Positions 5,166 to 60,832 of a stretch of DNA of 64,000 nt are shown piece after piece. How positions within the stretch are numbered: position 1 is the stretch's first letter; each line of letters starts with the position of its first letter. The notes under the pieces were generated by a model. That model was not told the origin of the DNA. It saw only the letters and a program-made list of their open reading frames with translations, and made no database searches. The DNA comes from Candidatus Nanopelagicales bacterium. Its GTDB lineage: Bacteria; Actinomycetota; Actinomycetes; S36-B12. Location of the stretch: positions 226,750 to 290,749 of the forward strand of contig JAURFD010000001.1 of the NCBI GenBank assembly GCA_030827125.1, in the 5' to 3' direction. The position numbers were made by a program, and so were the translations under genes.

Positions 5166-5244
5166 GGGTACCTCCTGGGGTAATGGGGCTAGTATTCCGC
5201 ACATCCGGGCATCGGGAGAGTTGGGGATAGGTCAAGATGTCAAC

Positions 5245-47877: not shown

Positions 47878-49466
47878 CGTGTGCTCCACAACACCGAGTC
47901 ATGCTGACGGGGCAGCGTCGGGAGTCCCGCGATCTGCTCGATCAGCAGATCGAGGATGGCATCGGGATCGTCGAGGTCGACCTGGCGCGCGATGTAGGGC
48001 GTGGTGACCGCCATGTTGAGCAGGGTGCGATCGCGGAGGACATCGTCGGGGAGAGGCGTGACGACGATTCCCTCCTCGTGCAGAAGGTTCATCGATCGGT
48101 CGGACAGGGGAGTCCGCACGACGAGTTCCCGCGGTCGCCACGACTGCAGGAGGATCTGATCGACATCGGGATCAGCACCGGCGATCAAGGCCACATCCCA
48201 CACGGCGCGCGGACGTGACTCGACGTCGAGGAGTTCCGCCAGGGTGGTCAACTGCACGGGCGCGGAGGCTCCGACCATGAGCGCACGCAGCACCGCCCGT
48301 CGCTGCCCGTCCGACATCGGTCGAGCTGCCTGTTCGAGCGCATCGGGGACGTTGGATGTCCCCTCGGTGAAGACGACGGCGCCGCGCGCTGCGTCCTGAC
48401 CGGCCAGCAGCGTGCGCAGGTCCGCATCGTGACCGGCGAGGACACGGCGCCCCGAGGCCAGCAGGCCGAGGCTGGTCGACGTCGCCCCCAGGAGGTGGTC
48501 GGGGGTCCACATCGGGTCCGCCAAGCCGAACGACGCCTTCGAGATCGCCTCGCGCAAGGCCACCGAGCGTTGGAGGCGAGGGTCGGGGGAGCACTCATCG
48601 CGTCCTGACCGATCAGCCTCGATCGCCGCGCGTAGTTCGCGTTCGAGAGGCGTGCCCGCGCGGCTCTCGCGGGGAACGAAGATGGAGGCGGAATGCGGGA
48701 CCTCCCCGAACTGCCAGGCGGCCGGGTCGATGCCCGGATGCCAGGGGTTGTCGCGGACCGAGCCCGGACCATCGACGACGAGATCGCACCGCTCCGCGAG
48801 TTCGGAGAGGAAGACGGTGCGGGACGGGGGCGTGGACCGAAGGAGGACCACGGGGCGCCCCTGCGCATGGGCCGCGTCGACCAACGCGGCGGCCGCGCGA
48901 AGTCGATCGACGGCTGCGGGGTCGCCGAGGTGCTCCCAGGATTCCCCCGGCAAGGCGGAAGCGGTGTCGATGACGACGATGTCGGCATCGACGGCTTCGA
49001 TCAGTGCGGGGCCTTCGTGCGGAAGGGCATTGCTCACCGCCGCATAGGGCGCCCACGCGAGTGCGGTGCGGTGTGAGAGGGCGCCAGCGATGGCCAGGGA
49101 TCCCTGCGCGGCCGCGGCTACCGACGTGCGCGGGATCAGTAGTCGCGGGGCGTCAAGATCGAGGACATCGTCGCGACGACCTCGCGTCGAAGGCGTGGTG
49201 GTCGGAGCCGTACGTCGCGATCGGCGAAGCCGCCAGATGCGCCATAGATCGCGGGGAAGGGTGAGGAGTCGTCGTGGGCTCTTGGCCGCATTCACCAAGA
49301 GGTTGCCGACGACGAACGACGCACTGCGCTGTGCACGTTCGAGGGCGCGCTCCGCACGATCGGCACGGGCTTCGGCGCGCCGCAGGTCGTGTTGGAGGCG
49401 GGCGACCTGGTTGGTAGGGCCGGGCTCGGGGGGCGCCTGCAGTTCGTCGGCCGGACCCTCGGTCAT
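47874..49466 (-). CDS. Hypothetical protein with N-terminal coiled-coil and basic amphipathic helix (function unknown)
   Basis: 530 aa. The N-terminus reads ARLQHDLRRAEARADRAERALERAQRSASFVVGNLLVNAAKSPRRLLTLPRDLWRIWRLRR. I recognise no catalytic motif. It is coupled by ATGA overlaps to both neighbouring genes. Confidence 0.6.
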   Translation of the reverse strand: MTEGPADELQAPPEPGPTNQVARLQHDLRRAEARADRAERALERAQRSASFVVGNLLVNAAKSPRRLLTLPRDLWRIWRLRRSRRTAPTTTPSTRGRRDDVLDLDAPRLLIPRTSVAAAAQGSLAIAGALSHRTALAWAPYAAVSNALPHEGPALIEAVDADIVVIDTASALPGESWEHLGDPAAVDRLRAAAALVDAAHAQGRPVVLLRSTPPSRTVFLSELAERCDLVVDGPGSVRDNPWHPGIDPAAWQFGEVPHSASIFVPRESRAGTPLERELRAAIEADRSGRDECSPDPRLQRSVALREAISKASFGLADPMWTPDHLLGATSTSLGLLASGRRVLAGHDADLRTLLAGQDAARGAVVFTEGTSNVPDALEQAARPMSDGQRRAVLRALMVGASAPVQLTTLAELLDVESRPRAVWDVALIAGADPDVDQILLQSWRPRELVVRTPLSDRSMNLLHEEGIVVTPLPDDVLRDRTLLNMAVTTPYIARQVDLDDPDAILDLLIEQIAGLPTLPRQHDSVLWSTR

Positions 49467-50548
49467 TCGCGGCCGCGTTCGTCAAGCCAGTCCAAGATGA
49501 CCTCGGCGATCCGATCACCGGCGTGCCCATCCCACAGGGGCGGGATCCGCTCGGCGTCGACGGGCTCGGCGAGGACCTCGTCAAGAAGGGCGACGAGCGT
49601 GGCGGGGGACGCGAGGCGATTGGTCCCATGGGTGATCGTGACCGGCCGCTCGGTGTTGGGGCGCAAGGTCAAGCAGGGCACCCGCAGCACGGTGGTTTCT
49701 TCCTGGACACCGCCGGAGTCGGTGATGACGGCACGGGCCCCGCTCACGAGGGACATGAAGTCCAGGTAGCCGAGGGGTTCCACGACGTGCACGCGCGGGT
49801 GATCCCCAATGCCGAGCGCCTCGAGGACGCGTCGCCCGCGCGGATGCAAGGGCAGAACGATCTCGGCCCGGGCAGCGGCTGAATGCACGAGGGCGACCAG
49901 TTCGGCCGCGGACTCAGGATCGTCGACGTTGCCCGGGCGGTGAAGGGTTGCGACGAGGTAGTCGTCGGGAAGTCCGAGGTCGGTACGAGCGCGCTGGGCG
50001 TCGAGGCGATCGAGGTTGGCGAGCAGGGTGTCGATCATGGGATTGCCGACCAGGTGGATCCGTTCCGCCGGCACCCCCTCGTGGGCGAGGTGAGCGATCG
50101 CGTCGGGACTGGTGCACAGCAGCAGGTCGGCGAGGCGATCGGTGACGATGCGATTGATCTCCTCGGGCATCGACATATCGAAGCTGCGCAATCCGGCCTC
50201 GACATGGGCCACGGGGATCTGCAGTTTGGCGGCGGCGATGCTCGCGGCCAAAGTGGAGTTCACATCGCCGTAGACGACGACCATGTCGGGTCGGGTGTCG
50301 AGCATCTCCACTTCGAGTCCGACAAGGATGGCGGCCGTCTGCTCGGCATGACTGCCCGAACCGACGCCCAGGTTGATGTCCGGCCGGGGGAGGTCGAGTT
50401 CGCGGAAGAAGATCTCCGACATGCGATCGTCGTAGTGCTGGCCGGTATGCACCAGGCGCTGACGGGCACCGCGGCGGGCGAGCGCGGCGATGACCGGGGC
50501 GGCCTTGGGGAAGTTGGGGCGGGCGCCGGTGACGTGCAGCAGGGTCAT
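49463..50548 (-). CDS. wecB: UDP-N-acetylglucosamine 2-epimerase (non-hydrolysing)
   Basis: MTLLHVTGARPNFPKAAPV, HTGQHYD, VYGDVNSTLA, HVEAGLRSFD and DSGGVQEE are classic WecB/MnaA motifs. Start ATG 50548; the track extension to 50758 is discounted. Confidence 0.9.
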   Translation of the reverse strand: MTLLHVTGARPNFPKAAPVIAALARRGARQRLVHTGQHYDDRMSEIFFRELDLPRPDINLGVGSGSHAEQTAAILVGLEVEMLDTRPDMVVVYGDVNSTLAASIAAAKLQIPVAHVEAGLRSFDMSMPEEINRIVTDRLADLLLCTSPDAIAHLAHEGVPAERIHLVGNPMIDTLLANLDRLDAQRARTDLGLPDDYLVATLHRPGNVDDPESAAELVALVHSAAARAEIVLPLHPRGRRVLEALGIGDHPRVHVVEPLGYLDFMSLVSGARAVITDSGGVQEETTVLRVPCLTLRPNTERPVTITHGTNRLASPATLVALLDEVLAEPVDAERIPPLWDGHAGDRIAEVILDWLDERGRE

Positions 50549-50627
50549 CTCGGCCTTCCCGTCATGTGGTCCTCGATTCAGCGCTCTACCTGCGCCGCCG
50601 TCTACTATCCCAGACCGGGAGGTGTCG

Positions 50628-52337
50628 ATGGCTACGCGCGGGCAAGACCGGCGTGCCCGCGAGGGTGCGCCTACCGACGCGGACTCACCGCGGCCGATCG
50701 GCTCCTCGCCGCGGCTGTGGGAGCGCGTCCTGCCCACGGTGCAGCACACACCCCTCATCGTGACCGGTGCGGTCCGTCGATTCCGCGAGGATCCGGCCCG
50801 GGGTCGGGCCGCCCTTGAGCGCGCCCTTCCTCGGCTGACCCCGGGTGCACCGGGCGGTGACGTGCTCGCCGCACTCGATCGGGCGATCGCGGCGGATCGC
50901 TACGACGAGGCGGTCACCTTGCTCGAACGCCTTGCTCCGGGTGACCCCGCGCGCCTTGGCGCGGAACTTGCGGTGGCCGGACTCGCCGGGCGACTGAACG
51001 ACGTCCTCGCCCATGAGCCGTCCGACCGACGCGGTCGGCGGGCGCTACGGCGTGCCGCGGCAGATCGGCAACGGCTCTCGGCCCCACTGCCCACCTGGTG
51101 CGCGGTATCGCCACGCACGCGTCCCACCACAGCAGAGGCGCCACGGATCCTCCACGTGGTGACCAATTCCCTGCCGCGCGTCCAGGCAGGCTCGACGATC
51201 CGCACTCAGCGCGTTGCCCGCGCGCAGCGCGACGCGGGGTGGGATGCCCAGGTCGTCACCCGTCCGGGATTCCCGGTCACTCGGGGTGAGGCCTGGGCCG
51301 CCGACGTGCAGTACGTCGACGGGATTCCCTATCACCGACTTCTGCCGCGGACGATGCCGTCCGAGGCTCGCGTGCCGGAGGTCTACGCCCGCGAGTTGGC
51401 CGCCCTCGTCGATGGGATCCGTCCCGATCTGCTCCACGGCGCCTCGGACCCGGTGAACGCCCGAGCCGCACTCGAGGTCGGGCGTCGGGCAGGTCTGCCG
51501 GTCGCCTACGAGGCGCGCAGCTTCTTCGAGGACACCTGGCTCAGCCGGCACGGAGGCGATCCCACGGCCGACACCTACCGCCTCCTCCGCGATCGCCACA
51601 CCGAGATCCTGCGGGCCGCTGATGTTGTGACGACGCTCGGTGTGGCCATGCGCGACGAGATCGTGCGTCGCGGGGTCCCCGCCGATCGCGTGATCATTGC
51701 CCCCAATGCCGTACCGGCCGCCTTCCTCGAGCCGCGAGCGGACACGGCGGAGCAGGCTCGCAGTCGCCTCGGCCTTGAAAACGCCGATCTGTGGGTTGGC
51801 AGCCTCGCGACTCTGAACGCCGACGAGGGCTTCGACACTCTCCTCGAGGCACTGGCTCTCCTGCGTGCCGAAGGGGTCGACGCGCGAGCGCTGCTCGTGG
51901 GGTCTGGCCCGACCTCGGCTGACCTCGCTCGACAGGCGGAGCAACGTGCAGTGCCCCTGACCATGCCGGGTCGGGTCCCGGTCGACGCGGTCCTGCCCTG
52001 GTACGACGCGCTGGACGTCTTCGCCTTCCCGCGACATGACACGGCGCTCAACCGCCTGGTTACCGGACTCAAGCCTGTGGAAGCCCAGGCCCGGGAGATC
52101 CCCGTGGTGGGCAGCGACCTGCCGGCCGTGCGGGAGGTGTCCGCTCCGGGGGCTGCTCTCGTGGCGTCCGGGGACGCGGCCGCGCTCGCGGAGGCCCTCA
52201 GCGGCCTGCTGGATCCCCGTGAACGAGGGGAGCGAGGCCGCGCCGCGCGCCAGTGGGTGAAGGAGACACGCACGTGGCCTCGCGTCATGGAGGCCTACCG
52301 GGCCGCGTACTCTTTCGGGGGTATCAGCGCCGCCTGA
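50628..52337 (+). CDS. GT4-family glycosyltransferase with ~190-aa N-terminal helical extension
   Basis: The GT-B core starts at RILHVVTNSLP. The C-terminal half has the donor-binding region (LVTGLKPVEAQAREIPVVGS). The preceding Ala/Arg/Leu-rich region has no recognisable motif. Confidence 0.7.
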   Translation: MATRGQDRRAREGAPTDADSPRPIGSSPRLWERVLPTVQHTPLIVTGAVRRFREDPARGRAALERALPRLTPGAPGGDVLAALDRAIAADRYDEAVTLLERLAPGDPARLGAELAVAGLAGRLNDVLAHEPSDRRGRRALRRAAADRQRLSAPLPTWCAVSPRTRPTTAEAPRILHVVTNSLPRVQAGSTIRTQRVARAQRDAGWDAQVVTRPGFPVTRGEAWAADVQYVDGIPYHRLLPRTMPSEARVPEVYARELAALVDGIRPDLLHGASDPVNARAALEVGRRAGLPVAYEARSFFEDTWLSRHGGDPTADTYRLLRDRHTEILRAADVVTTLGVAMRDEIVRRGVPADRVIIAPNAVPAAFLEPRADTAEQARSRLGLENADLWVGSLATLNADEGFDTLLEALALLRAEGVDARALLVGSGPTSADLARQAEQRAVPLTMPGRVPVDAVLPWYDALDVFAFPRHDTALNRLVTGLKPVEAQAREIPVVGSDLPAVREVSAPGAALVASGDAAALAEALSGLLDPRERGERGRAARQWVKETRTWPRVMEAYRAAYSFGGISAA

Positions 52338-52375
52338 GGGCGGAGCCGGCCATGGCGGCCGCGCGGCGACGAAGG

Positions 52376-53641
52376 ATGGATATGGCACGCGATCTCGTGG
52401 TCATCGGGCTCGGCTATGTCGGTCTGCCCCTCGCCCAGGAGGCCTGCCGATCGGGCCTCACGGTCACCGGACTCGACGTCTCCGAGCATGTTGTATCGGG
52501 TCTCAACGCTGGCCGATCGCACGTCGACGACCTGTCCGATGACGACATCAATGCCATGCTCAAGGCGGGATTCAGTGCGACGACCGACCCATCGGTCATC
52601 GGCGATGCGCACACCGTCGTCATCTGTGTACCCACCCCGCTGACGCCGGAGGGTGGCCCGGACCTCGGTGCCGTCCTCGGCGCAACGCAGTCGATCGCAG
52701 CGCACTTGCAGCGCGGGCAACTCATCGTCTTGGAGTCCACGACCTATCCGGGGACGACGGACGACGAGGTGCGCCCAGTGCTCGAGGCCGGCGGACTCGT
52801 TGCCGGCCGGGACTTCCATCTCGCCTTTAGCCCCGAGCGAATCGACCCGGGCAACCCCACCTATGGGATGCGCAACACACCCAAGGTCGTCGGCGGACAC
52901 ACGCCCGAGTGCACGGATGCGGCGTCAACGTTCTACGGGCGATTCGTCGATACCGTCGTGCCCGCGCGCGGGACCCGCGAGGCGGAGATGGCCAAACTCC
53001 TCGAAAATACCTACCGCCACATCAACATTGCACTCGTCAATGAGATGGCGCGCTTCTGCCACGAACTCGACATTGACCTGTGGGATGTCATCGCGGCGGC
53101 CAAGAGCAAGCCCTTCGGCTTTCAGGCGTTCTACCCCGGCCCCGGCGTTGGCGGTCACTGCATTCCAATCGATCCGAACTATCTGAGCTACCAGGTGCAG
53201 GCCAAACTCGGCTATCCCTTCCGCTTCGTCGAACTCGCGCAGGAGATCAACGCGGGAATGCCGACTTACGTCATCCGTCGGGTCCAGGACATCTTGAACG
53301 AGGACGGCAAGGCCCTGCGAGGAGCGCGCGTGCTACTCCTTGGCGTGACATACAAGCCCGACATCGCCGATCAGCGCGAATCACCGGCCAAGCCCATCGC
53401 CCAGCAATTGCGCGACAAGGGCGCCATCGTGGAGTACCACGATCCACACGTCACAGCCTGGCGTCTGAATGGCGAGACCCTCGCCCCGGTCCCCGACCTT
53501 GATGCCGCGGTGAGTGACGCGGATCTCACCATCCTGCTGCAAAACCACGATGCCTATGACATTCCCGCCCTCGTGGCGCGCTCGCGTCGTTTCTTCGACA
53601 CCCGAGGTGTCACCCGAGGTAACGAGGCGGTGCGACTCTGA
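52376..53641 (+). CDS. Nucleotide-sugar 6-dehydrogenase (UDP-GlcNAc/UDP-ManNAc dehydrogenase type)
   Basis: N-terminal VIGLGYVGLPLA Rossmann motif and the catalytic-Cys motif GVGGHCIPIDP. It belongs to the UDP-glucose/GDP-mannose dehydrogenase family. The substrate (GlcNAc, ManNAc or another sugar) is not resolvable by eye. Confidence 0.8.
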   Translation: MDMARDLVVIGLGYVGLPLAQEACRSGLTVTGLDVSEHVVSGLNAGRSHVDDLSDDDINAMLKAGFSATTDPSVIGDAHTVVICVPTPLTPEGGPDLGAVLGATQSIAAHLQRGQLIVLESTTYPGTTDDEVRPVLEAGGLVAGRDFHLAFSPERIDPGNPTYGMRNTPKVVGGHTPECTDAASTFYGRFVDTVVPARGTREAEMAKLLENTYRHINIALVNEMARFCHELDIDLWDVIAAAKSKPFGFQAFYPGPGVGGHCIPIDPNYLSYQVQAKLGYPFRFVELAQEINAGMPTYVIRRVQDILNEDGKALRGARVLLLGVTYKPDIADQRESPAKPIAQQLRDKGAIVEYHDPHVTAWRLNGETLAPVPDLDAAVSDADLTILLQNHDAYDIPALVARSRRFFDTRGVTRGNEAVRL

Positions 53642-53691: not shown

Positions 53692-54543
53692 GTGCTCGCC
53701 CGGGAGGCCGGGCTCACCCGAGTCAACAGCCGGCCGCCCTTCTTCGCCTACCTCCGCTCGCTGTGGCAGCGGCGTGCGTTCATCCGCGCGTTCGCCAAGG
53801 CAAGCGTCGATAAGCAGAACACCAAGAGTCGACTGGGCCAGTTCTGGCAGGTGATGGATCCGGTCCTCACCATGGCCCTGTACTGGTTCCTCTTCGGATT
53901 CCTGCTCGGTGGTCGCGGCAGCGTGGAGAATTACACCGGCTTCCTCGCGGCGGGTGTCTTCAGTTTTGCGATCATTCGCCAGTCCATTACGGCGGGTTCG
54001 CGTTCCATCTCGGGCAATGAGGGACTCGTCCGCTCCATTCACTTCCCGCGCGCGGTCTTGCCGATCGCCGTGGTGATGAAGCAACTGCGGGTCTTCTACT
54101 ACGCGATCCCCATCATGGTGGTGATTCTGCTCATTACGGGTGAGCCGATCACGTGGCGATGGTTGCTCGCGCCCGTCGGACTTCTGCTCATCGTGATGTT
54201 CTCGCTGGGTATGGCGATGATCATGGCCCGCATTGTGGCGACGCTGCAGGATGTGTCAGAGATCCTCGGATATCTGCTGCGCATCTGGGGATACATGTCC
54301 GGCGTGATGATCCCGATCGCCGACCGTCTCAGCCGGCTCGGCTTGCCGCCGTGGGCCGTGTTCATCATCGAAATCAATCCGGGGACGGTTTACCTCAACG
54401 TGATGCGTGATGCCCTCATGGCCTCCTATTACTCACCGGGCGGAGCACTGAACTGGATTCTGGCGGTCGCCTGGGCCGTGGTGATGCTGCCCTTCGGCAT
54501 GTGGTTCTTCTGGCGGGCGGAGGATCGCTATGGTCGAGGATGA
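53692..54543 (+). CDS. ABC-2-type polysaccharide/teichoic-acid exporter permease (Wzm/TagG-like)
   Basis: 283 aa with six predicted TM segments and the N-terminal amphipathic LRSLWQRRAFIRAF ... LGQFWQVMDPVL typical of ABC-2 permeases. GTG start is uncertain. Confidence 0.8.
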   Translation: MLAREAGLTRVNSRPPFFAYLRSLWQRRAFIRAFAKASVDKQNTKSRLGQFWQVMDPVLTMALYWFLFGFLLGGRGSVENYTGFLAAGVFSFAIIRQSITAGSRSISGNEGLVRSIHFPRAVLPIAVVMKQLRVFYYAIPIMVVILLITGEPITWRWLLAPVGLLLIVMFSLGMAMIMARIVATLQDVSEILGYLLRIWGYMSGVMIPIADRLSRLGLPPWAVFIIEINPGTVYLNVMRDALMASYYSPGGALNWILAVAWAVVMLPFGMWFFWRAEDRYGRG

Positions 54544-55498
54544 CGATGAGATGGAGATCGATCTCAGTGAGGAGGCCGACTTCTCCGATGTCGCGCCACC
54601 ACGCGAGAACGATCCGAACGCGCCAATCAAGGTGGTCGTCGACAACCTCCACATCGTCTATCGGGTGTGGACCGCTCCCGACCAGCCCCTAGAGGACACC
54701 GCCAGTCGCTGGCAGCGCATGCGCGCACGCCGGCCCGTGTCGACCAAGAGGGAGATCCATGCCCTGCGTGGCGTGAACTTCGTCGCGCGCCAGGGTGAGG
54801 CGGTGGGCGTCATCGGCAAGAATGGCGCGGGCAAATCCACGCTTATGCGCGCGATCGCCGGGCTCCTTCCGCCAAATCAGGGCGTGGTCTACGCCGACGG
54901 TCAACCGACGATGCTCGGCGTGAGTTCGGCGCTGATGCAGGCGCTGTCCGGCCTGCGCAATGTCGAGCTCGGCCTGCTTGCTTTGGGCCTCACTCCCAAG
55001 GAGGTCAAGGCGCGCATCCCGGACGTCATCGAATTCAGCGGAATTGGATCGGCGATCCATATGCCGATGAGCACCTATTCGTCAGGCATGTCCGCACGGT
55101 TGAAGTTCGCCATCGCCTCGGCGGTCACCCACGAAATCTTGCTCATCGATGAGGCGCTGTCGACCGGTGATGGTGAGTTCGTCAAGCGGTCGAGTCAGCG
55201 CATCCAGCAATTGCGCGATGACGCGGACACCATCTTCCTCGTAAGTCACTCGATGGGCGCCATCCGGTCCGCCTGCAATCGCGTGCTGTGGCTCGATGAG
55301 GGACAGATCCTGGCTGATGGACATCCGGACGACATCATCCCCGAGTACGAAGCGCGCTTCGGCCTGAAGTCGAAGAAGGCCATGCGTGAGCGGCGGAAGA
55401 AGCGCAAAGACGCCAACGAGCAGGCGATGGCCGAACTCGCCGCCGAAGGGTCGGACATGGTCAGCGCGACGGACCCGACGGTTCGCGGCCGGGACTAG
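54530..55498 (+). CDS. Polysaccharide/teichoic-acid exporter ATP-binding protein (Wzt/TagH-like)
   Basis: Walker A GKNGAGKSTL, signature YSSGMSARL, Walker B LLIDEA. It has an acidic N-terminal tail and a short charged C-terminal tail. Confidence 0.85.
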   Translation: MVEDDDEMEIDLSEEADFSDVAPPRENDPNAPIKVVVDNLHIVYRVWTAPDQPLEDTASRWQRMRARRPVSTKREIHALRGVNFVARQGEAVGVIGKNGAGKSTLMRAIAGLLPPNQGVVYADGQPTMLGVSSALMQALSGLRNVELGLLALGLTPKEVKARIPDVIEFSGIGSAIHMPMSTYSSGMSARLKFAIASAVTHEILLIDEALSTGDGEFVKRSSQRIQQLRDDADTIFLVSHSMGAIRSACNRVLWLDEGQILADGHPDDIIPEYEARFGLKSKKAMRERRKKRKDANEQAMAELAAEGSDMVSATDPTVRGRD

Positions 55499-55500
55499 CC

Positions 55501-56571
55501 GTGCGCGTCCTCGTCCTGTGTGCCGTGCACGATCCGCGAGATGCGCGCATCGCGGAACGCGAGATCGCGGCCCTTCTCGCGGCGGGGCATGAGGTGACCC
55601 AGGCCGGTCCGTTCAGCGCCTACGGCGCGGTGCCGCGTGATGGAGTGCGCGGCATCGATATTCCCCGAGCGACGGGCCGACGGCGCTTGGGCGCACTGCG
55701 TGAGTCGCGGCGAGTGCTGCGGCGTGAGGCTGCCTCCCACGACGTGGTGATCTTGCACAGTGCCGAAGCGGTAGCCGCCGCCACCGGGCTGCGCCATCCG
55801 TCCATCGTGTGGGATGTCCACGAGGACACCGCTGCGTCGCTCAGCCTGAAGCCTTGGTTGCCCAATCTGCTGCGTCGTCCCGTGGCCGGTCTCGCCCGTG
55901 CCGGGGAGTCGCTCGTCGAACGCCGTCGGCACCTTCTGCTCGCTGAGACGGCGTACGCACATCGGTTCGGCAGCGACCACCCGGTCGTGCCGAACAGTCC
56001 TGTGGTTCCGGCGCGAGTCCCGGCGAGCGGCCGCGGACGTGCGATCTACGTCGGGAGTGTGACAGTGGCGCGCGGCGGTGACGACCTCATCGCGCTGTCC
56101 CGACGACTGACCACTGTGAGCGTCGATGTGGTGGGCCCGGCGACCGGGGACCTGGTGGGACGGCTGCGCGCGGCCGAGGGTGAGTCGTTTCACTGGTGGG
56201 GATTCCGTCCCAACGCCGAAGCGCTCGCGCAGGTGGAGGGAGCGACCGTTGGCCTGTCACTCCTGCACGACGAGCCGAACTATCGGCACTCCATGCCCAC
56301 CAAGGTGTTGGAGTATCTCGCACGCGGTGTGCCCTTCATCTCGACTCCGCTTCCCCTGGCCGTTGACGTGGCCGAGCAGAGTGGCGCGGGGGTGATTGTG
56401 CCGTTCGGGGACCTCGATGCCGCGGCCGTCGCGGTGCAAGAGCTCAACGACGACGACGCGCGACGTCAGGCGATGGCCGAGGCTGGGAGGGCGTGGGTGC
56501 GTGCGAATGCCGACTGGGCCAACGACGGCCCGGCCTTCGTGGCGATCCTGGAGTCCTGGGCGCGGGGTTAG
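55501..56571 (+). CDS. Glycosyltransferase (GT-B fold, GT4-like)
   Basis: 356 aa. E-x7-E-like region SMPTKVLEYLARGVPFIS, and the N-terminal VRVLVLCAV typical of GT-B enzymes. Confidence 0.7.
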   Translation: MRVLVLCAVHDPRDARIAEREIAALLAAGHEVTQAGPFSAYGAVPRDGVRGIDIPRATGRRRLGALRESRRVLRREAASHDVVILHSAEAVAAATGLRHPSIVWDVHEDTAASLSLKPWLPNLLRRPVAGLARAGESLVERRRHLLLAETAYAHRFGSDHPVVPNSPVVPARVPASGRGRAIYVGSVTVARGGDDLIALSRRLTTVSVDVVGPATGDLVGRLRAAEGESFHWWGFRPNAEALAQVEGATVGLSLLHDEPNYRHSMPTKVLEYLARGVPFISTPLPLAVDVAEQSGAGVIVPFGDLDAAAVAVQELNDDDARRQAMAEAGRAWVRANADWANDGPAFVAILESWARG

Positions 56572-56640
56572 GCTGCGCCGGCTCGGCCGGCGTCGCACTA
56601 CCGAGCGCGCATTGCCATCGGGCGCCGGCCTGCCGGGCGC

Positions 56641-57729
56641 CTAGTCGCCAGACTCCTCCTCCGCCGCGGGCTTGCCGCCGCGGCGTTGGCTGAGCAGGTA
56701 GGCGGCGGCCCCGGCCGCTCGGGCCACGTCCTCCGGTGTGGGTACGCCGTCGGTGCCATCGGCCGCGACCGCGAGGTCCGCGAGATCTCCGAAGATTCGC
56801 ACTCCGGTGGCGCCGAGGTCGGCGATGTCCTCGGCGGCCCAGGTGCTCACGGTCGGAAGTAGCGCGGCCGGGAGTCCGAGTCGCTCGCCGCGATCCGGGC
56901 GGTCCGTCCAACCGCGACGGATGAGGGCGCGATGGGTCGACCGGACCTCTCGCCGGCCTTCGCCGGCCGCACGGGCCGCCAGGTTGAATCCGAAGATCGC
57001 GTAGGTCTCCGGCCCAGTCAGCGAGATGTTCGCTTTGTCCTCGGGTACCACCGGCGGGAGGGCTGGTAGGTCGTCGATGCCGCAGGCGGACGCGAATCGC
57101 TCCCACACCAGGGCCGCGCCGCCCCCGGCAGCGGGGACCGTGACCACGCGAACGGACTGCGCCCCTGCCGCCAGCCAGCGCCGCACGAGTTCGCCGTATC
57201 GATACGCCCGCCAGAATCCTCGGCGCAGCTCATCGCGATGACTCTGCGTTTCGCGTTCCTGCGCGCGCAGGCGCAGGTAGTCCGGATAGGCCTCGAAGTT
57301 GCCGTTGCGCATGTGCTGCTGCCAGGAACTCGGCAGGATCCGCGCGAGATCGCGCGCGGTGACCACGACGTCCATCGATACGCCGTCGAACGCATCGACG
57401 ACCGCAGCCGCTCCGTCATCGGTGAGCACCGACAGCGCTTCGGCGGACAGGATGACCTCGCCGGGGGCGCTGTGCACCACCGAGAGAAGTGCTTCGGCAT
57501 CGGAGCCGTCCTGCTCGGTCCAGGCATCCGGCTGAAGGCCGATGCCGCCGGATTGGCGCGCGAGATCGATGAGACCGGGCACCTGATTGTGGTCGACGCG
57601 GCCGCGGGTCTCGATGGGATAGATGGTGGGGGCAAGTTCACCGGCGAGGACCAGCGCCTGCAGGGCGCGTTGAACGTATGTGGTCGCGGTTTTGCGCGGT
57701 CCGATGTGCAGAACGACGCGCGATGCCAC
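56641..57729 (-). CDS. Sulfotransferase-like protein, uncharacterised family (paralog of 58762-59850)
   Basis: The N-terminal VVLHIGPRKTATTYVQ resembles the PAPS 5'-phosphosulfate-binding loop. VVVTARDLARILPSSWQQH resembles the 3'-phosphate-binding R-x-x-x-D/S region. It is clearly paralogous to the gene two positions upstream. Confidence 0.5.
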   Translation of the reverse strand: MASRVVLHIGPRKTATTYVQRALQALVLAGELAPTIYPIETRGRVDHNQVPGLIDLARQSGGIGLQPDAWTEQDGSDAEALLSVVHSAPGEVILSAEALSVLTDDGAAAVVDAFDGVSMDVVVTARDLARILPSSWQQHMRNGNFEAYPDYLRLRAQERETQSHRDELRRGFWRAYRYGELVRRWLAAGAQSVRVVTVPAAGGGAALVWERFASACGIDDLPALPPVVPEDKANISLTGPETYAIFGFNLAARAAGEGRREVRSTHRALIRRGWTDRPDRGERLGLPAALLPTVSTWAAEDIADLGATGVRIFGDLADLAVAADGTDGVPTPEDVARAAGAAAYLLSQRRGGKPAAEEESGD

Positions 57730-57738
57730 GGGCTGGCC

Positions 57739-58752
57739 TCAGCGACCGAAGCGACGCCGGACGGCCGCGACGAGATCCTCGGGTCGCTGGTCGTCGCGGC
57801 CGAGGCAGTAGGCCCCGGCCACACCGCACAGGGTTGCTGCCGCCCACAGCAGGGACGACGACCCTGGATTGCGGCGTGAGCTCACCGCCGCCGCCAGGGA
57901 CAACACTCCGGCGGCCGCGAGTGGGAGGAGGGCAGCCGGCAAATCGCCCGCTTCACCGGAGATGCGCGACGTGCGGGCACCGACACTCGACCCGCTCTGG
58001 GCGTGCTTGGGCTGGTACTCCTCGGGCTCGCGCAGGTCCAGGGTCTTGCGCGTGCCGACCGCGGTCTCTACGCCGTAGCCGTGCTCCACGAGCCAGCGGG
58101 CACCCTCGGCCTCGATCGCGACGAGCTCCTCATCGGTGAGGGTGTCGCGCCACGCGCCAGCGCGACCGTCGGTGATGTGGTTGGAGGTCACGCGCAGGTC
58201 GTCGTCGACACCGTGCGCCTTGGCCGCGACTGCGCGCTGCTCCTGAGCCGCGAGATCGACGTCCGCGACGATCTTGGCCACTCCGGCCTCATCGATATCC
58301 ACCTCGAGGAACGTCGCGAGATCGCGGACCAGCCCCGGAACGTCATCGCGGAAGTCTTCATATTTGCCGATCCAGACATCCTTGCGTGAGGTCCAGAACT
58401 CATCACCGCGCAATTCACGGCGCACGATGAGGCGACTGTTGCGCGCACCACGCTCGGGATCGCCCGGCTTTGCGCGGCCCTTGCGATAGAGCGAAGCGAC
58501 GACGTCGCGAGGGTCGCGATAGGTGTAGAGGTATTTCGCTCCCGCGTCCGGGAAGTCGCCGCGGTTGAGGGCCGGCCGGAAGTGCACCTTGGCCATGAGG
58601 AGATCAGCCGGGTCCGCCGCCGCCGCGGGATATTCCGACGTGGGGATGCCACGCGGGTTGCGCAGGCCAGGGCGACCGTCGACGAGTTGTCGGGCGATCT
58701 GCCACACGAGCGTGGAACCGGAGCGGTGCATGCCGCAGACGAGGAGAAGCAC
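57739..58752 (-). CDS. Sulfotransferase with C-terminal membrane anchor
   Basis: GMHRSGSTLVWQ (5'-PSB loop) and YTYRDPRDVVASLYRK (3'-PB motif). The C-terminal ~70 aa contains two hydrophobic segments (LPAALLPLAAAGVLSLAAAV, LLWAAATLCGVAGAYCLG). GTG start. Confidence 0.65.
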   Translation of the reverse strand: MLLLVCGMHRSGSTLVWQIARQLVDGRPGLRNPRGIPTSEYPAAAADPADLLMAKVHFRPALNRGDFPDAGAKYLYTYRDPRDVVASLYRKGRAKPGDPERGARNSRLIVRRELRGDEFWTSRKDVWIGKYEDFRDDVPGLVRDLATFLEVDIDEAGVAKIVADVDLAAQEQRAVAAKAHGVDDDLRVTSNHITDGRAGAWRDTLTDEELVAIEAEGARWLVEHGYGVETAVGTRKTLDLREPEEYQPKHAQSGSSVGARTSRISGEAGDLPAALLPLAAAGVLSLAAAVSSRRNPGSSSLLWAAATLCGVAGAYCLGRDDQRPEDLVAAVRRRFGR

Positions 58753-58761
58753 GTGCGCAGT

Positions 58762-59850
58762 CTAGGTGCTGCGGACCGGGAGTCCGGCGAGGTAGGCCAT
58801 CGCCGCGCCCGCTGCGCGGGCGATCTCGTCCGGATCGGGACCGTCACCGACGGGAGCGTCGGCGTCCACCAGGAGATCGGATCGCGGACCGACGAGGATG
58901 GCCGAGGTCGAATCGAGAACCTCGACATCGTCACGGGCCCACGCGCGGGCCCGTTCGGCCCAATGGCGGGGGAGTTGAACGGGTGTTCCGCGGTCAGGTC
59001 GGACCGCGAAGGCCTCGCGCACCAGCCGGCCGCGCAGGGCACGCAGGTCAGGTCCGTCGGCCTTCACCGAGTCCACCTGCCGGTTTAGGGCGGCGAGGAC
59101 CAGGACCTCAGGCTCGGTCAGACCGACATTGGCGGCGAGGTCGTCGATGGTCGGAGGAGTTTCTGGCAGCGCGGGGCCCACGTCAAGGGCGCGCCGGAAG
59201 CGATGCCACAACTCATCCGGGGCCGCGCCGCGGCGGGGGACGGTGACGACGCTTACGGTGCGCGCGAAGGGCGCCCAGCGTTCGACCAGGGTGCCGATGG
59301 CATAGGCCCGCCAGAAGGTCTGGTCCGGATCGTCGTTCCACCGAGCGGCGCGCTCCCGTGCGTTGCCCTCGCCACGACGGTCGGCCTGTTGCTGAAGGAA
59401 CGACGGGAAACTCGTCGACCTGCCATTGCGGATGTGCTGCTGCCACGAACTCGGCAGCACGCGTCCGAGATCACGGGCGGTGATGATGACGTGGGTGTTG
59501 GGGACCCCAAGACTCTCGACAAGACGTCGCGCTGCGTCGGCGTCGATGACGGAGAGCGCCTCGCCTGACACGATCGCCGTGCCATCCCACTGGCCGACCT
59601 TGCGCACGAGGCCGTTCCATGATCCTTCCTGCCCTCGCGCACGGGCCTCGGGCACCCACGGGAAAGAGGCGGTCCCGAGCAGTCCGTAGGCGGCCGCTTC
59701 ATGGTTGTAGACCTCGCGGCGCCCGTGCAGGCGCGTTGGGTAGAGCACGCCGTCGCGCTTGAGCGAGGACGAGAGGGCCGCGAGGACGCGCTGGAGGTAC
59801 GTCGTACCGGACTTCTGCGTACCGATGTGCAGCAGCAGTCGATCGGCCAC
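58762..59850 (-). CDS. Sulfotransferase-like protein, uncharacterised family (paralog of 56641-57729)
   Basis: LLLHIGTQKSGTTYLQ, IITARDLGRVLPSSWQQH, FWRAY and VSVVTVP are all shared with the paralog. Start GTG 59850 is preceded by GGGAG; the track ORF extends to 59904. Confidence 0.5.
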   Translation of the reverse strand: MADRLLLHIGTQKSGTTYLQRVLAALSSSLKRDGVLYPTRLHGRREVYNHEAAAYGLLGTASFPWVPEARARGQEGSWNGLVRKVGQWDGTAIVSGEALSVIDADAARRLVESLGVPNTHVIITARDLGRVLPSSWQQHIRNGRSTSFPSFLQQQADRRGEGNARERAARWNDDPDQTFWRAYAIGTLVERWAPFARTVSVVTVPRRGAAPDELWHRFRRALDVGPALPETPPTIDDLAANVGLTEPEVLVLAALNRQVDSVKADGPDLRALRGRLVREAFAVRPDRGTPVQLPRHWAERARAWARDDVEVLDSTSAILVGPRSDLLVDADAPVGDGPDPDEIARAAGAAMAYLAGLPVRST

Positions 59851-59932
59851 ACGCGCTCCCTGCGACTCGGGACGTCCTCGACGTCGGGAGCCCCATCCTG
59901 TCACGACCCGATCGCGTGGCAGGCTTGCCCGC

Positions 59933-60832
59933 GTGCGCGTGGCGACGGTCGGAAATTTCGATGGGGTGCATCGAGGGCATCAGGCCTTGATCGCCCGCGC
60001 CCGCGCGGCGCTGCCCGGGGATGCGGACGACCGCGTCATCGTCGTCACCTTCGATCCCCATCCGCAGGCCGTCCTGCGCCCGGACGCGGCACCCAAGTTG
60101 CTCGCCACACTGCCGCGCCGCATTGAGCTCCTGCGCGAGCACGGCGCGGACGATGTGGTCGTGGTCCCGTTCACCCGCGAGTTCGCGGCTAACGAACCCG
60201 AGGACTTCGCGCGCTTGCTGCGAGATGATCCGGGCATCGCCGCTGATCGTGTGGTTGTTGGCGAGAACTTCCGATTCGGCCGTCGTGCCAGCGGTGACGT
60301 GAGCGACCTCACCCGGCTCGGACAGGAGCTCGGTTTCACCGTGGATGCCGTACCCCTGATGGAGGCGGAGTCGGCCGACGGCGTTCCGTGGTCGTCCAGC
60401 TTCGTGCGCGAGCAGATTGACGCCGGGGACATGGGGGCCGCCGCCGCGGCCCTCGGCCATCCGCATCGCCTTGAGGGCCCCGTGCGTCACGGCGATGCCC
60501 GGGGTCGGGAGCTGGGCTACCCCACGGCCAACCTCGAGGTGGGCCCGCAATTCGCGGTGCCGCCCGATGGTGTCTACGCGGGCTGGCTGCTCGATGGCCC
60601 CGAGCGGTACCCGGCTGCTGTCTCCATTGGCACCAATCCCCAGTTCGCCGGGACCGAGCGGCGGGTGGAGGCCTATGTCCTCGATCGGGACGATCTCGAC
60701 CTCTACGACCACGACGTGGCGCTCGACCTGGTGTCCCGACTGCGGGGACAGGCCACCTTTGCGTCGGTGGACGACCTCATCGAGCAGATGGGTCGAGATG
60801 TCGCCATGGCACGGGGGGCCCTCGGGGGCTGA
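59933..60832 (+). CDS. ribF: Bifunctional riboflavin kinase / FMN adenylyltransferase
   Basis: VGNFDGVHRGHQ (FAD synthetase) and ELGYPTANL plus VEAYVLD (riboflavin kinase). GTG start at 59933 or 59939; the track ORF start at 59759 overlaps the divergent gene. Confidence 0.9.
   Translation: MRVATVGNFDGVHRGHQALIARARAALPGDADDRVIVVTFDPHPQAVLRPDAAPKLLATLPRRIELLREHGADDVVVVPFTREFAANEPEDFARLLRDDPGIAADRVVVGENFRFGRRASGDVSDLTRLGQELGFTVDAVPLMEAESADGVPWSSSFVREQIDAGDMGAAAAALGHPHRLEGPVRHGDARGRELGYPTANLEVGPQFAVPPDGVYAGWLLDGPERYPAAVSIGTNPQFAGTERRVEAYVLDRDDLDLYDHDVALDLVSRLRGQATFASVDDLIEQMGRDVAMARGALGG

What the first reader, a model, noticed from the sequence alone, without database searches (positions are those of the whole stretch)
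58762..59850. Two ~360-aa paralogs define an apparently uncharacterised sulfotransferase-like family with a conserved C-terminal extension
The proteins at 58762-59850 and 56641-57729 align along their whole length. Shared blocks are:
- LHIGxxKxxTTYxQRxL
- SxEALSV
- TARDLxRxLPSSWQQHxRNG
- FWRAY
- VxVVTVP
- ARAAGAAxAYL near the C-terminus

Only the first ~150 aa look like a sulfotransferase core. The remaining ~200 aa, including a block containing NxxLTxPE, have no motif I recognise and could be an acceptor-recognition domain. The duplication flanks the canonical membrane-anchored enzyme, which suggests subfunctionalisation.
Basis: seen in the sequence. Interest (0 to 1): 0.6.

Follow-up and report, generated by a model that had tools for sequence, protein, structure and literature searches.

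The report
Unnamed sulfotransferase-like family in wall-glycan loci
Two old paralogs in an uncultured aquatic actinobacterium belong to a large family with no Pfam or NCBIfam model that most likely adds sulfate to a cell-wall sugar polymer, a modification said in a 2026 paper to be reported so far only in cyanobacteria among bacteria.

Summary
The proteins at 58762-59850 and 56641-57729 (minus strand) align over 345 residues (34% identity, E 5e-54), and all seven quoted motifs are present in both.

- **Family:** large and unnamed, with 2,682 cluster representatives, no Pfam or NCBIfam model and no relative in the PDB by sequence.
- **Function:** most likely divergent PAPS-dependent sulfotransferases.
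  - Every weak signal points only to sulfotransferases: the K-x-G-T-T loop, an invariant Arg, an invariant Glu, a profile match (72%, P 3e-5 against six controls at P 0.16 or more) and the best fold scores.
  - The genome keeps cysD-cysNC but shows no sulfite reductase or CysH.
  - The C-terminal 200 residues are not a separate domain. The model is one compact domain, and natural fused doublets repeat the whole 350-residue unit.
  - The pair is not a local duplication (AU p 0.00014). The second copy is missing from 11 of 28 syntenic loci.
- **New here:** elsewhere the family forms arrays of 3-6 paralogs beside galactofuranan or teichoic-type genes.

No activity has been shown for any member. 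This scan has noted the same trio in other genomes before.

The parts
58762..59850 (-). NF_A: 362-aa member of the unnamed sulfotransferase-like family, and the conserved copy
   Evidence: ORF and translation. The start is set by orthologs and a GGAG. Orthologs of 53-93% identity sit next to ribF in all 36 syntenic loci. AlphaFold pLDDT 93.2, pTM 0.91.
59791..59829 (-). HIGTQKSGTTYLQ: sulfotransferase-type 5'-phosphosulfate-binding loop (K13, G15, T16, T17) after strand 1
   Evidence: Translation. H8, G10, K13 and Q20 are present in all 121 of 124 diverse representatives that have a residue there. hhalign aligns it to the PRSGTT loop of Sulfotransfer_3.
59425..59568 (-). S95-x-E97 after strand 2 (candidate general base), then T124-x-R126 ... 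S134 (candidate 3'-phosphate-binding Arg and Ser, 8 residues apart) and the WQQ helix
   Evidence: Translation. E97 and R126 are invariant in 124 of 124 representatives; S134 is Ser in 75 and Ala in 48. hhalign places R126 and S134 on the hRd....aS block of Sulfotransfer_3. The assigned roles are inferred.
57739..58752 (-). ST1_TM: Pfam Sulfotransfer_1 enzyme with a C-terminal membrane anchor, 9 nt after NF_A and in the same frame
   Evidence: Pfam PF00685 E 3.8e-14. Hydrophobic window at 268-275 plus 19 residues. Junction sequence. Present in every syntenic locus that reaches this position.
56641..57729 (-). NF_B: 362-aa second family member (loop KTATT; acidic tail), 9 nt after ST1_TM; the dispensable copy
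   Evidence: Translation. 34% identical to NF_A. Junction sequence. Present in 17 and absent from 11 of 28 syntenic loci that span the site. Sister to NF_C, not to NF_A.
59851..59933 (.). about 83-bp divergent intergenic region between NF_A and ribF (ribF most likely starts at the GTG at 59934 or 59940)
   Evidence: Sequence. No sigma-70 consensus promoter or intrinsic terminator between 56400 and 60200. A 150-nt metatranscriptome contig covers 59724-59873 without a mismatch, which is only a weak hint.
55501..56571 (+). GT-B glycosyltransferase, convergent with the sulfotransferase operon
   Evidence: Pfam Glyco_trans_1_2, Glyco_trans_1_4 and Glycos_transf_1. Syntenic.
53692..55498 (+). ABC-2 permease (53692-54543) and ATPase (54530-55498): Wzm/Wzt- or TagGH-type polymer exporter
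   Evidence: Pfam ABC2_membrane 3.4e-11 and ABC_tran 8.7e-19. Syntenic.
52253..53641 (+). UDP-sugar 6-dehydrogenase (UDP-ManNAc or UDP-glucose dehydrogenase family)
   Evidence: Pfam UDPG_MGDP_dh_N, central and C domains.
50490..52337 (+). GT4 glycosyltransferase; the catalytic part starts near residue 230 and the true start is uncertain
   Evidence: Pfam Glyco_trans_4_4, Glyco_trans_1_4 and Glycos_transf_1.
49463..50758 (-). UDP-GlcNAc 2-epimerase (WecB/MnaA type)
   Evidence: Pfam Epimerase_2 E 3.9e-102.
45670..49466 (-). 530-aa protein without a Pfam domain (47874-49466) and a 739-aa double GT4 glycosyltransferase (45670-47889); this is the far end of the island
   Evidence: Pfam. The 530-aa protein is found at 35-59% identity in six syntenic loci.

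Best explanation
NF_A and NF_B are soluble cytoplasmic sulfotransferases that use PAPS and belong to a divergent family with no Pfam or NCBIfam model. Together with the membrane-anchored Sulfotransfer_1 enzyme encoded between them, they most likely O-sulfate a lipid-linked, uronic-acid-containing wall glycan.

**Proposed pathway (inferred)**
- The neighbouring glycosyltransferases, UDP-GlcNAc 2-epimerase and UDP-sugar dehydrogenase build the glycan.
- Sulfation happens on the cytoplasmic face of the membrane, before the ABC-2 transporter exports the polymer.

**Proposed chemistry (inferred by analogy with solved sulfotransferases)**
- K13, T16 and T17 of the H-I-G-x-x-K-x-G-T-T loop hold the 5'-phosphosulfate.
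- R126, with S134 eight residues later, holds the 3'-phosphate.
- The invariant E97, just after strand 2, deprotonates the acceptor hydroxyl, as Glu does in heparan-sulfate sulfotransferases.

The whole ~350-residue protein is one catalytic domain. The three enzymes probably differ in the sugar or position they sulfate.

**What is shown and what is not**
- Shown: the homology signals, the single-domain model, the conserved residues, the gene context and the presence of PAPS synthesis genes.
- Inferred: PAPS binding, sulfate transfer, the acceptor and the residue roles.
For: **1. Sequence motifs**
- The loop is K-x-G-T-T, the sulfotransferase type. It is not the Walker A pattern G-x4-G-K-[ST].
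- E97 and R126 are invariant. H8, G10, K13, Q20, S95, T124, W136 and Q137 are at least 94% conserved in 124 representatives, which are 26-46% identical to NF_A.

**2. Profile comparison**
- hhalign of the family against a Sulfotransfer_3 profile gives probability 72%, P 3.4e-5. The loop, the R...S block and strand 4 plus the following helix all align in register.
- Against the Sulfotransfer_1 ortholog profile, P is 0.012.
- Six controls, including an ABC ATPase and a reversed profile, give P 0.16-0.77.

**3. Pfam**
- The only recurring Pfam hits among the 124 members are Sulfotransfer_3 (16 members) and Sulfotransfer_1 (3 members), all sub-threshold.

**4. ESM Atlas**
- The nearest named clusters are Sulfotransfer_1 and Sulfotransfer_3.

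**5. Fold**
- For the compact member, the highest query-normalised TM-scores in the PDB are all sulfotransferases: CurM ST 0.40, 3-OST-3 0.38, NDST1 0.35 and TPST1 0.33.
- Retinol dehydratase and CurM ST are also among the hits for NF_A.

**6. Gene context**
- The genes form a tight operon with a bona fide sulfotransferase inside an ABC-transporter glycan island. The island is syntenic in 28 or more species.
- In other actinomycetes the family lies beside GlfT2-like transferases, UDP-galactopyranose mutase, GT2, TagF-like, ABC-2, LCP and pyruvyl-transferase genes.

**7. Sulfate donor**
- The genome has cysD plus a cysN-cysC fusion.
- It has no second PAPS_reduct-family gene (so no CysH) and no NIR_SIR sulfite reductase, at 97% completeness. 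Activated sulfate therefore has no visible assimilatory use.
- APS kinase is found in 36 of 38 family-positive sampled genomes and 78 of 113 family-negative ones.
Against: - No member of the family has been characterised, and no ligand-bound structure exists.
- Pfam gathering thresholds are not met: 18.7 bits against 27 for NF_A, and no hit for NF_B.
- Foldseek E-values are all above 1e-3 for sulfotransferases and TM-scores are below 0.5. The top-ranked hits by E-value are generic P-loop GTPases.
- The putative 3'-phosphate Ser is Ala in 48 of 124 members. The R-x-x-R-G block that might match the R-K-G loop is not conserved family-wide.
- NF_B has Ala in place of the loop Gly.
- APS kinase is common in the class anyway (75%), and related genomes are not independent samples.
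- The third paralog sits between glnE and glnA with no glycan genes nearby, so not every member need act on a wall polymer.
- Transcription is not shown. Only two 150-nt contigs from one RNA library map to the gene.
Confidence: 0.62

Rival explanations
1. They are true sulfotransferases, but they act as chain terminators. A sulfate on the non-reducing end of the growing glycan stops polymerisation and sets chain length, in the way phosphate-methyl caps do in some ABC-transporter O-antigen systems.
For: The pathway depends on an ABC transporter. A conserved 530-aa protein without a domain hit is translationally coupled to the putative polymerase. The conserved core of the locus is one NF_A plus one membrane-anchored enzyme.
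Against: Arrays of 3-6 distinct, orthologously conserved paralogs elsewhere suit many modification sites better than a single cap. The ATPase is only 322 aa, which leaves no room for a cap-binding module.
Confidence: 0.12
2. They are sulfotransferases whose acceptor is not the wall glycan but a lipid, a small metabolite or a protein.
For: The stand-alone paralog NF_C lies among glutamine-synthetase genes. The Actinomadura, Streptomonospora and Spirillospora homologs showed no match to the island's genes within 10 kb. Mycobacterial sulfotransferases act on trehalose lipids and on menaquinone (from general knowledge).
Against: NF_A keeps its place in the glycan island in every syntenic locus. 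Unrelated lineages place arrays next to galactofuranan or teichoic-type genes.
Confidence: 0.12
3. They are P-loop kinases or phosphotransferases that phosphorylate the polymer or a sugar precursor, not sulfotransferases.
For: The best Foldseek E-values go to P-loop GTPases, and nucleotide kinases are among the hits. The sulfotransferase and kinase folds are related.
Against: There is no Walker A G-K-[ST] and no conserved Walker B Asp (D127 is conserved in only 91 of 124). The profile match to the ABC ATPase control is P 0.64, against 3.4e-5 for Sulfotransfer_3. No kinase family appears in the Pfam scan of 124 members.
Confidence: 0.07
4. One or both are non-catalytic partners (pseudoenzymes) that scaffold or regulate the membrane-anchored Sulfotransfer_1 enzyme.
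For: NF_B is dispensable in 11 of 28 loci and has Ala in the loop. Some fused doublets have lost the loop motif in their second module.
Against: K13, E97, R126 and S134 are kept in both proteins, and E97 and R126 are invariant across the family. Such strict conservation of polar residues is typical of active sites.
Confidence: 0.07

Closest known systems
Pfam Sulfotransfer_3 (PF13469), e.g. mycobacterial Stf3-like enzymes
   Same: It gives the only recurring Pfam signal and the best profile-profile match (72%, P 3.4e-5). The P-loop, the Arg...Ser block and the fourth strand plus helix all align in register. The donor pathway (cysDNC) is the same.
   Different: Scores fall below the gathering threshold. 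There is no match beyond residue 222. The loop reads H-I-G-x-x-K-x-G-T-T rather than G-x-P-R-S-G-T-T. The protein starts directly at strand 1. The family occurs as tandem arrays and fused doublets in glycan loci.
Heparan-sulfate sulfotransferases (3-OST-3, PDB 6xkg; NDST1, PDB 8cd0)
   Same: They are among the best structural matches by query-normalised TM-score (0.38 and 0.35). They are carbohydrate O/N-sulfotransferases that use a Glu general base (from general knowledge), which would fit the invariant E97.
   Different: TM-scores are below 0.5 and E-values are about 0.02. Sequence identity is 11-12%. They are eukaryotic Golgi enzymes. The equivalence of E97 to their catalytic Glu has not been tested by superposition.
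CurM sulfotransferase domain (PDB 4gbm) and cytosolic-type Sulfotransfer_1 enzymes (retinol dehydratase 1x8k, Teg14 3nib, and the neighbouring ST1_TM)
   Same: CurM ST gives the highest TMq (0.40 over 365 columns). Sulfotransfer_1 hits appear in 3 of 124 members, and one close homolog has a precomputed PF00685 hit. A low-confidence hhalign alignment puts the loop, the R...S block, the FW motif and the R-x-x-R-G block opposite the corresponding ST1 motifs.
   Different: The statistical support is weak (P 0.012). These enzymes use His, not Glu, as the base (from general knowledge). They carry no comparable terminal helix or helical insertions.
Gene clusters for bacterial sulfated polysaccharides: synechan (xss) of Synechocystis and the wps-1 cluster of Actinoplanes missouriensis
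   Same: Sulfotransferase genes are embedded in polysaccharide synthesis and export clusters. The Actinoplanes paper likewise predicts, without chemical proof, a sulfated polysaccharide in an actinomycete (PMC13390465; PMC8205485 is cited there).
   Different: Those sulfotransferases carry recognised InterPro domains, and wps-1 uses a Wzx/Wzy pathway (PMC13390465). Here the family has no Pfam or NCBIfam model and the pathway depends on an ABC transporter.

Membership tests
PAPS-dependent sulfotransferase superfamily | 5'-phosphosulfate-binding loop K-x-G-T-T directly after the first strand | tested here: met
   NF_A has QKSGTT at residues 12-17 after strand 4-10; NF_B has RKTATT. K13 is present in all 121 of 124 representatives with a residue there; G15 in 116, T16 in 112, T17 in 107.
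PAPS-dependent sulfotransferase superfamily | 3'-phosphate-binding Arg at the end of a core strand, with Ser eight residues later in the next helix | tested here: met
   R126 follows strand 119-125 and S134 lies in helix 128-141 in both proteins. hhalign aligns them to the same block of Sulfotransfer_3. Family-wide, Arg is present in 124 of 124, but Ser in only 75 of 124, with Ala in 48.
PAPS-dependent sulfotransferase superfamily | General base (His or Glu) after a core strand next to the loop | tested here: inconclusive
   E97 is invariant and follows strand 91-96. No superposition on a ligand-bound structure was possible because model coordinates are not exposed and the VIA libraries are absent.
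PAPS-dependent sulfotransferase superfamily | Fold similarity to solved sulfotransferases | tested here: inconclusive
   Sulfotransferases give the highest TMq values (0.33-0.40), but their E-values are 0.007-0.05. Generic P-loop GTPases rank first by E-value.
PAPS-dependent sulfotransferase superfamily | PAPS binding and sulfate transfer | not testable with these tools
   This needs biochemistry. The only indirect support is cysD-cysNC without a reduction pathway.
Pfam Sulfotransfer_3 (PF13469) / Sulfotransfer_1 (PF00685) | Score at or above the curated gathering threshold | tested here: not met
   NF_A scores 18.7 bits against 27 (PF13469) and 13.4 against 22 (PF00685). NF_B has no hit. The 16 Sulfotransfer_3 and 3 Sulfotransfer_1 hits among the 124 members have best E-values of 6e-5 and 5.2e-4.
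P-loop NTP kinases / NTPases | Walker A G-x4-G-K-[ST] and a Walker B acidic residue | tested here: not met
   The loop is G-x-x-K-x-G-T-T, with no Lys after the second Gly. The only candidate Asp (D127) is present in 91 of 124. The profile match to an ABC ATPase is P 0.64.

The most novel reading that the evidence does not exclude
This family is the signature of a widespread, chemically undescribed trait: multi-site sulfation of cell-wall glycans (teichuronic-like polymers and galactofuranans) in Actinomycetota, especially uncultured aquatic lineages. Arrays of up to six specialised paralogs and fused doublets would write a sulfation pattern. Sulfate activation (cysDNC) would be kept solely for this purpose in genomes that have lost assimilatory sulfate reduction.
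Probability: 0.3. Interest if true: 0.7.

Novelty: new variant of a known kind. Interest (0 to 1): 0.5.

Why it matters

- **Scale.** Here a family of at least 2,682 sequence clusters has no Pfam or NCBIfam model, and nearly every source name is 'hypothetical protein'. It sits in wall-glycopolymer loci in about a quarter of the sampled genomes of the class.
- **Function, if confirmed.** If the family members are sulfotransferases, a sulfated cell envelope would be common in abundant freshwater and estuarine actinobacteria. That would bear on surface charge, phage and grazer recognition, and the pool of sulfated organic matter.
- **Sulfur metabolism.** It would also explain why a genome with no visible sulfate reduction keeps cysDNC.
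- **Testability.** Cultured hosts exist: Actinomadura madurae ATCC 19425, Streptomonospora alba, Haloactinopolyspora alba and Actinoallomurus iriomotensis.
- **Practical step.** The family deserves a profile model so that these genes stop being annotated as hypothetical.

Tried and rejected
**Searches that found nothing useful**
- PDB by sequence, with the single protein and with two profiles. There were no meaningful hits; the one sulfotransferase, 3rnl, came at E 1.3.
- NCBIfam: nothing.
- hhalign of the family against the single ST1_TM sequence aligned only the loop, at probability 1.8%.
- Foldseek against viral models returned only weak P-loop and sulfotransferase hits.
- Three literature searches found no characterised member and no report of a sulfated actinobacterial wall polymer.
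- Cluster look-up of ten distant representatives gave no names or organisms.
- The promoter and terminator scan of 56400-60200 found nothing.
- RNA evidence: most of the island has no cover in the one metatranscriptome that holds any of it. This says nothing about silence.

Contexts were instead taken with the fetch from genomes and my own GC3-based ORF calling. That calling worked poorly on four loci (L053-L056), which were left out.
It was run with A1 instead.

**Readings rejected**
- A separate C-terminal domain.
- A recent tandem duplication.
- A Walker-type kinase.

**Unpublished genomes**
- The tallies include genomes flagged unpublished (G006, G014, G023, G029, G031, G035, G042).
- Without them, the family is found in 36 of 144 genomes. 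APS kinase is then found in 34 of 36 family-positive and 74 of 108 family-negative genomes.
- No sequence from these genomes was used.
Full report
**Observation**

The window is GC-rich (about 66%) DNA from a 2.6-Mb, 97%-complete genome. By best hits it belongs to an uncultured 'Candidatus Nanopelagicales' actinobacterium.

Three genes lie on the minus strand with 9-nt spacers, all in one frame:
- NF_A at 58762-59850;
- a Pfam Sulfotransfer_1 gene with a C-terminal hydrophobic anchor at 57739-58752;
- NF_B at 56641-57729.

The NF_A ORF extends to 59904, but orthologs start at the GTG at 59850, which has a GGAG five bases upstream. NF_A and NF_B align end to end: 34% identity over 345 residues, E 5e-54.

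**Is the family known?**

- Pfam gives NF_A only sub-threshold hits (Sulfotransfer_3 at 18.7 bits against a cut-off of 27; Sulfotransfer_1 at 13.4 against 22). It gives NF_B nothing.
- NCBIfam gives nothing.
- PDB sequence and profile searches give nothing.
- The family is nevertheless large. An exhaustive phmmer search over 1.84 billion cluster representatives finds 2,682 at E 1e-3 or better and 1,431 at E 1e-10 or better. Almost all match over the full length.
- Source names are 'hypothetical protein', apart from one automatic 'sulfotransferase family protein'.
- Three literature searches found no characterised member.

**Is it a sulfotransferase?**

Every weak signal points the same way, and none points elsewhere.

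1. *Motifs.*
   - The N-terminal loop H-I-G-x-x-K-x-G-T-T is the sulfotransferase 5'-phosphosulfate loop. It is not a Walker A motif.
   - R126 with S134 reproduces the Arg-x7-Ser 3'-phosphate element.
   - E97 follows strand 2, where sulfotransferases place their base.
   - E97 and R126 are invariant in 124 diverse representatives. H8, G10, K13 and Q20 are present in every sequence that has the position.
2. *Profile comparison.*
   - I built a Sulfotransfer_3 profile from 17 actinomycete genes found with PF13469. hhalign of the family against it gives probability 72%, P 3.4e-5.
   - Three motifs align in register, and the match runs to residue 222.
   - The profile of the neighbouring Sulfotransfer_1 orthologs gives P 0.012.
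   - Six controls, including a P-loop ABC ATPase and the reversed profile, give P 0.16-0.77.
3. *Pfam.* The only Pfam families that recur among the 124 members are Sulfotransfer_3 (16 members) and Sulfotransfer_1 (3 members).
4. *ESM Atlas.* The nearest named clusters are Sulfotransfer_1 and Sulfotransfer_3.
5. *Fold.*
   - Two AlphaFold models were made, of NF_A and of a compact 330-aa member. Both have pLDDT 93 and pTM 0.91.
   - Foldseek finds nothing strong. Generic P-loop GTPases rank first by E-value.
   - The highest query-normalised TM-scores all belong to sulfotransferases: CurM ST 0.40, 3-OST-3 0.38, NDST1 0.35, TPST1 0.33 and Teg14 0.33.
   - On its own the fold evidence is inconclusive.

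**Donor supply**

The genome encodes cysD next to a cysN-cysC fusion, that is, a GTPase plus APS kinase. Three further findings bear on what that PAPS is for:
- That cysD is the only PAPS_reduct-family gene, so there is no CysH.
- No NIR_SIR sulfite reductase was found, although the same search rings in 11 of 14 control genomes.
- Candidate PAP phosphatases are present.

At 97% completeness, this suggests that sulfate is activated but not reduced, which leaves sulfotransferases as the visible users of PAPS.

The genome has six sulfotransferase-like genes: three of this family, one Sulfotransfer_1 and two Sulfotransfer_3.

Across 151 sampled genomes of the class, APS kinase is present in 36 of 38 family-positive and 78 of 113 family-negative genomes. 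The odds ratio is 8 and the nominal p is 0.0009, but related genomes are not independent and the base rate is high.

**Context in the window**

The trio closes a roughly 14-kb island next to ribF-rpsO-pnp, downstream of nusA and infB. In order, the island holds:
- a double GT4 glycosyltransferase;
- a 530-aa protein with no domain hit;
- UDP-GlcNAc 2-epimerase;
- a GT4 glycosyltransferase;
- a UDP-sugar dehydrogenase;
- an ABC-2 permease and its ATPase;
- a GT-B transferase;
- the three sulfotransferase-like genes.

The epimerase and dehydrogenase suggest an N-acetylmannosaminuronic-acid-type sugar. This is an inference from the known WecB/WecC and teichuronic-acid pathways.

The order ribF | NF_A | ST1_TM | (NF_B) | GT | ABC | ... 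is kept in 36 loci from other species, with NF_A at 53-93% identity. An independent 2025 estuary contig spans 53092-61233.

NF_A and NF_B have no hydrophobic segment. They would therefore act in the cytoplasm, where PAPS is, before export.

**The C-terminal half**

- The models show a single compact domain. Its four core strands are at 4-10, 91-96, 119-125 and 198-203.
- The profile match to Sulfotransfer_3 covers this strand and the following helix, which holds the LWxRF block.
- Highly conserved positions continue through the second half: W180, R191, W192, P205, W215, R217, F218, N241 (the N of the NxxLTxPE block) and G321.
- Ten natural fusion proteins of 748-809 aa consist of two modules each. 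In nine of them both modules are complete, covering profile positions from about 3-21 to about 331-360. In three, only one module matches the strict loop pattern. This shows that the ~350-residue unit is the module.
- Compared with a cytosolic sulfotransferase (from my own knowledge, not tested by superposition), the spacing of motifs suggests an ordinary sulfotransferase core with longer helical inserts and one extra terminal helix (340-354, the ARAAGAA block).

**The 'duplication'**

- A third paralog, NF_C, lies at contig 54, 10794-11966, between glnE and glnA. It has a basic tail.
- In trees, NF_A, NF_B and NF_C each group with their own orthologs from the same set of related genomes. NF_B is sister to NF_C, with SH-aLRT support of 99.
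- Forcing NF_A and NF_B together costs 56.8 log-likelihood units (AU p 0.00014).
- NF_B is absent from 11 of the 28 syntenic loci that span its site. One locus has two copies of the membrane-anchored enzyme instead.

The pair is therefore an old paralogy with a variable second member, not a local duplication. Different specificities remain plausible but untested.

**Wider picture (new relative to the finding)**

- The family occurs in 38 of 151 sampled genomes of the class.
- It often forms tandem arrays. Six consecutive copies lie at G011:C1:416109-422564. There are five copies in each of G118:C11 and G022:C65, and three or four in several other genomes.
- Positions within the arrays are orthologous between genomes.
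- Neighbours within four genes of family members include:
  - GT2 glycosyltransferases (13);
  - UDP-galactopyranose mutase (5);
  - TagF-like glycerophosphotransferases (5);
  - GlfT2-like galactofuranosyltransferases (4, or 5 counting a paralog by identity);
  - ABC-2 permeases (4);
  - IspD-like cytidylyltransferases (3);
  - LCP ligases (2);
  - Stealth proteins (2);
  - a polysaccharide pyruvyl transferase, seen in a separate per-protein check of one locus.
- In G118 the order is five family genes, then a GlfT2-like gene, UDP-galactopyranose mutase, two GT2 genes and one more family gene.
- Named hosts are Actinomadura (including A. madurae ATCC 19425), Spirillospora, Streptomonospora, Haloactinopolyspora and Actinoallomurus.

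**Verdict**

The most likely reading (0.62) is a divergent family of PAPS-dependent sulfotransferases, without a Pfam or NCBIfam model, that modifies wall glycopolymers.

Rivals, with the evidence for and against each given in the Rival explanations section:
- a chain-capping role;
- a non-glycan acceptor;
- a kinase;
- a pseudoenzyme partner.

The same trio was noted earlier in this scan on other genomes. What this report adds:
- the size of the family;
- the profile-level test with controls;
- the single-domain result;
- the old paralogy of the two copies;
- the arrays and fused doublets;
- the galactofuranan and teichoic-type contexts;
- sulfate activation without a visible reduction pathway.

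No biochemical evidence exists for any member. The tallies include a few genomes flagged unpublished; the figures without them are given under Tried and rejected.

Noticed in passing
G000 contig 54, 10794-11966 (minus); locus L139: A third family paralog (390 aa) stands alone between glnE and a glutamine synthetase gene. It ends in a basic Arg-rich tail. Orthologs occur in the same related genomes (L101, L109, L132).
   Followed up: partly
proteins P0141, P0159, P0160, P0163, P0168, P0178, P0187, P0196, P0203, P0213: These are natural fusions of two modules of the family in one 748-809-aa protein; in nine of the ten both modules are complete. In P0187, P0203 and P0213 only one module matches the strict H-x-G-x-x-K-x-G-T-T pattern, which may mark a degenerate module.
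   Followed up: partly
L039 (G011:C1:408000-427999), L040 (G118:C11:1-18000), L041 (G095:C7): Arrays of three to six distinct family paralogs lie directly beside GlfT2-like galactofuranosyltransferase, UDP-galactopyranose mutase, GT2 and ABC-2 genes. In G011 a polysaccharide pyruvyl transferase follows the array.
   Followed up: partly
G000 contig 3, about 65997-68821 (L140:5997-8821): cysD and a cysN-cysC fusion are present. No second PAPS_reduct-family gene (CysH) and no NIR_SIR sulfite reductase was found in the 97%-complete genome. Sulfate appears to be activated but not reduced.
   Followed up: partly
G000 contig 33, 195750-196421 (L141:7583-8467, minus) and contig 4, 12-518: Two further sulfotransferase genes of the Pfam Sulfotransfer_3 type. 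The first lies immediately downstream of secA.
   Followed up: no
L066 (VGBQ01000114.1), 4548-6600: This syntenic locus carries two tandem copies of the membrane-anchored Sulfotransfer_1 gene between the NF_A and NF_B orthologs.
   Followed up: no
G011:C1:417275-418342 and G140:C3:295325-296371: Family members inside arrays each have one in-frame TGA. They may be pseudogenes or sequencing errors.
   Followed up: no
window 47874-49466: The 530-aa protein without a Pfam domain is kept in the syntenic islands but diverges fast (35-59% identity, while its neighbours are 70-90%).
   Followed up: no
window 56641-59850, public runs: Near-identical DNA (63-98% of sampled words) occurs in estuary, freshwater, marine plankton, crustacean- and sponge-associated and sediment metagenomes from about 15 studies. 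One metatranscriptome yields two 150-nt contigs, at 59474-59623 and 59724-59873.
   Followed up: partly
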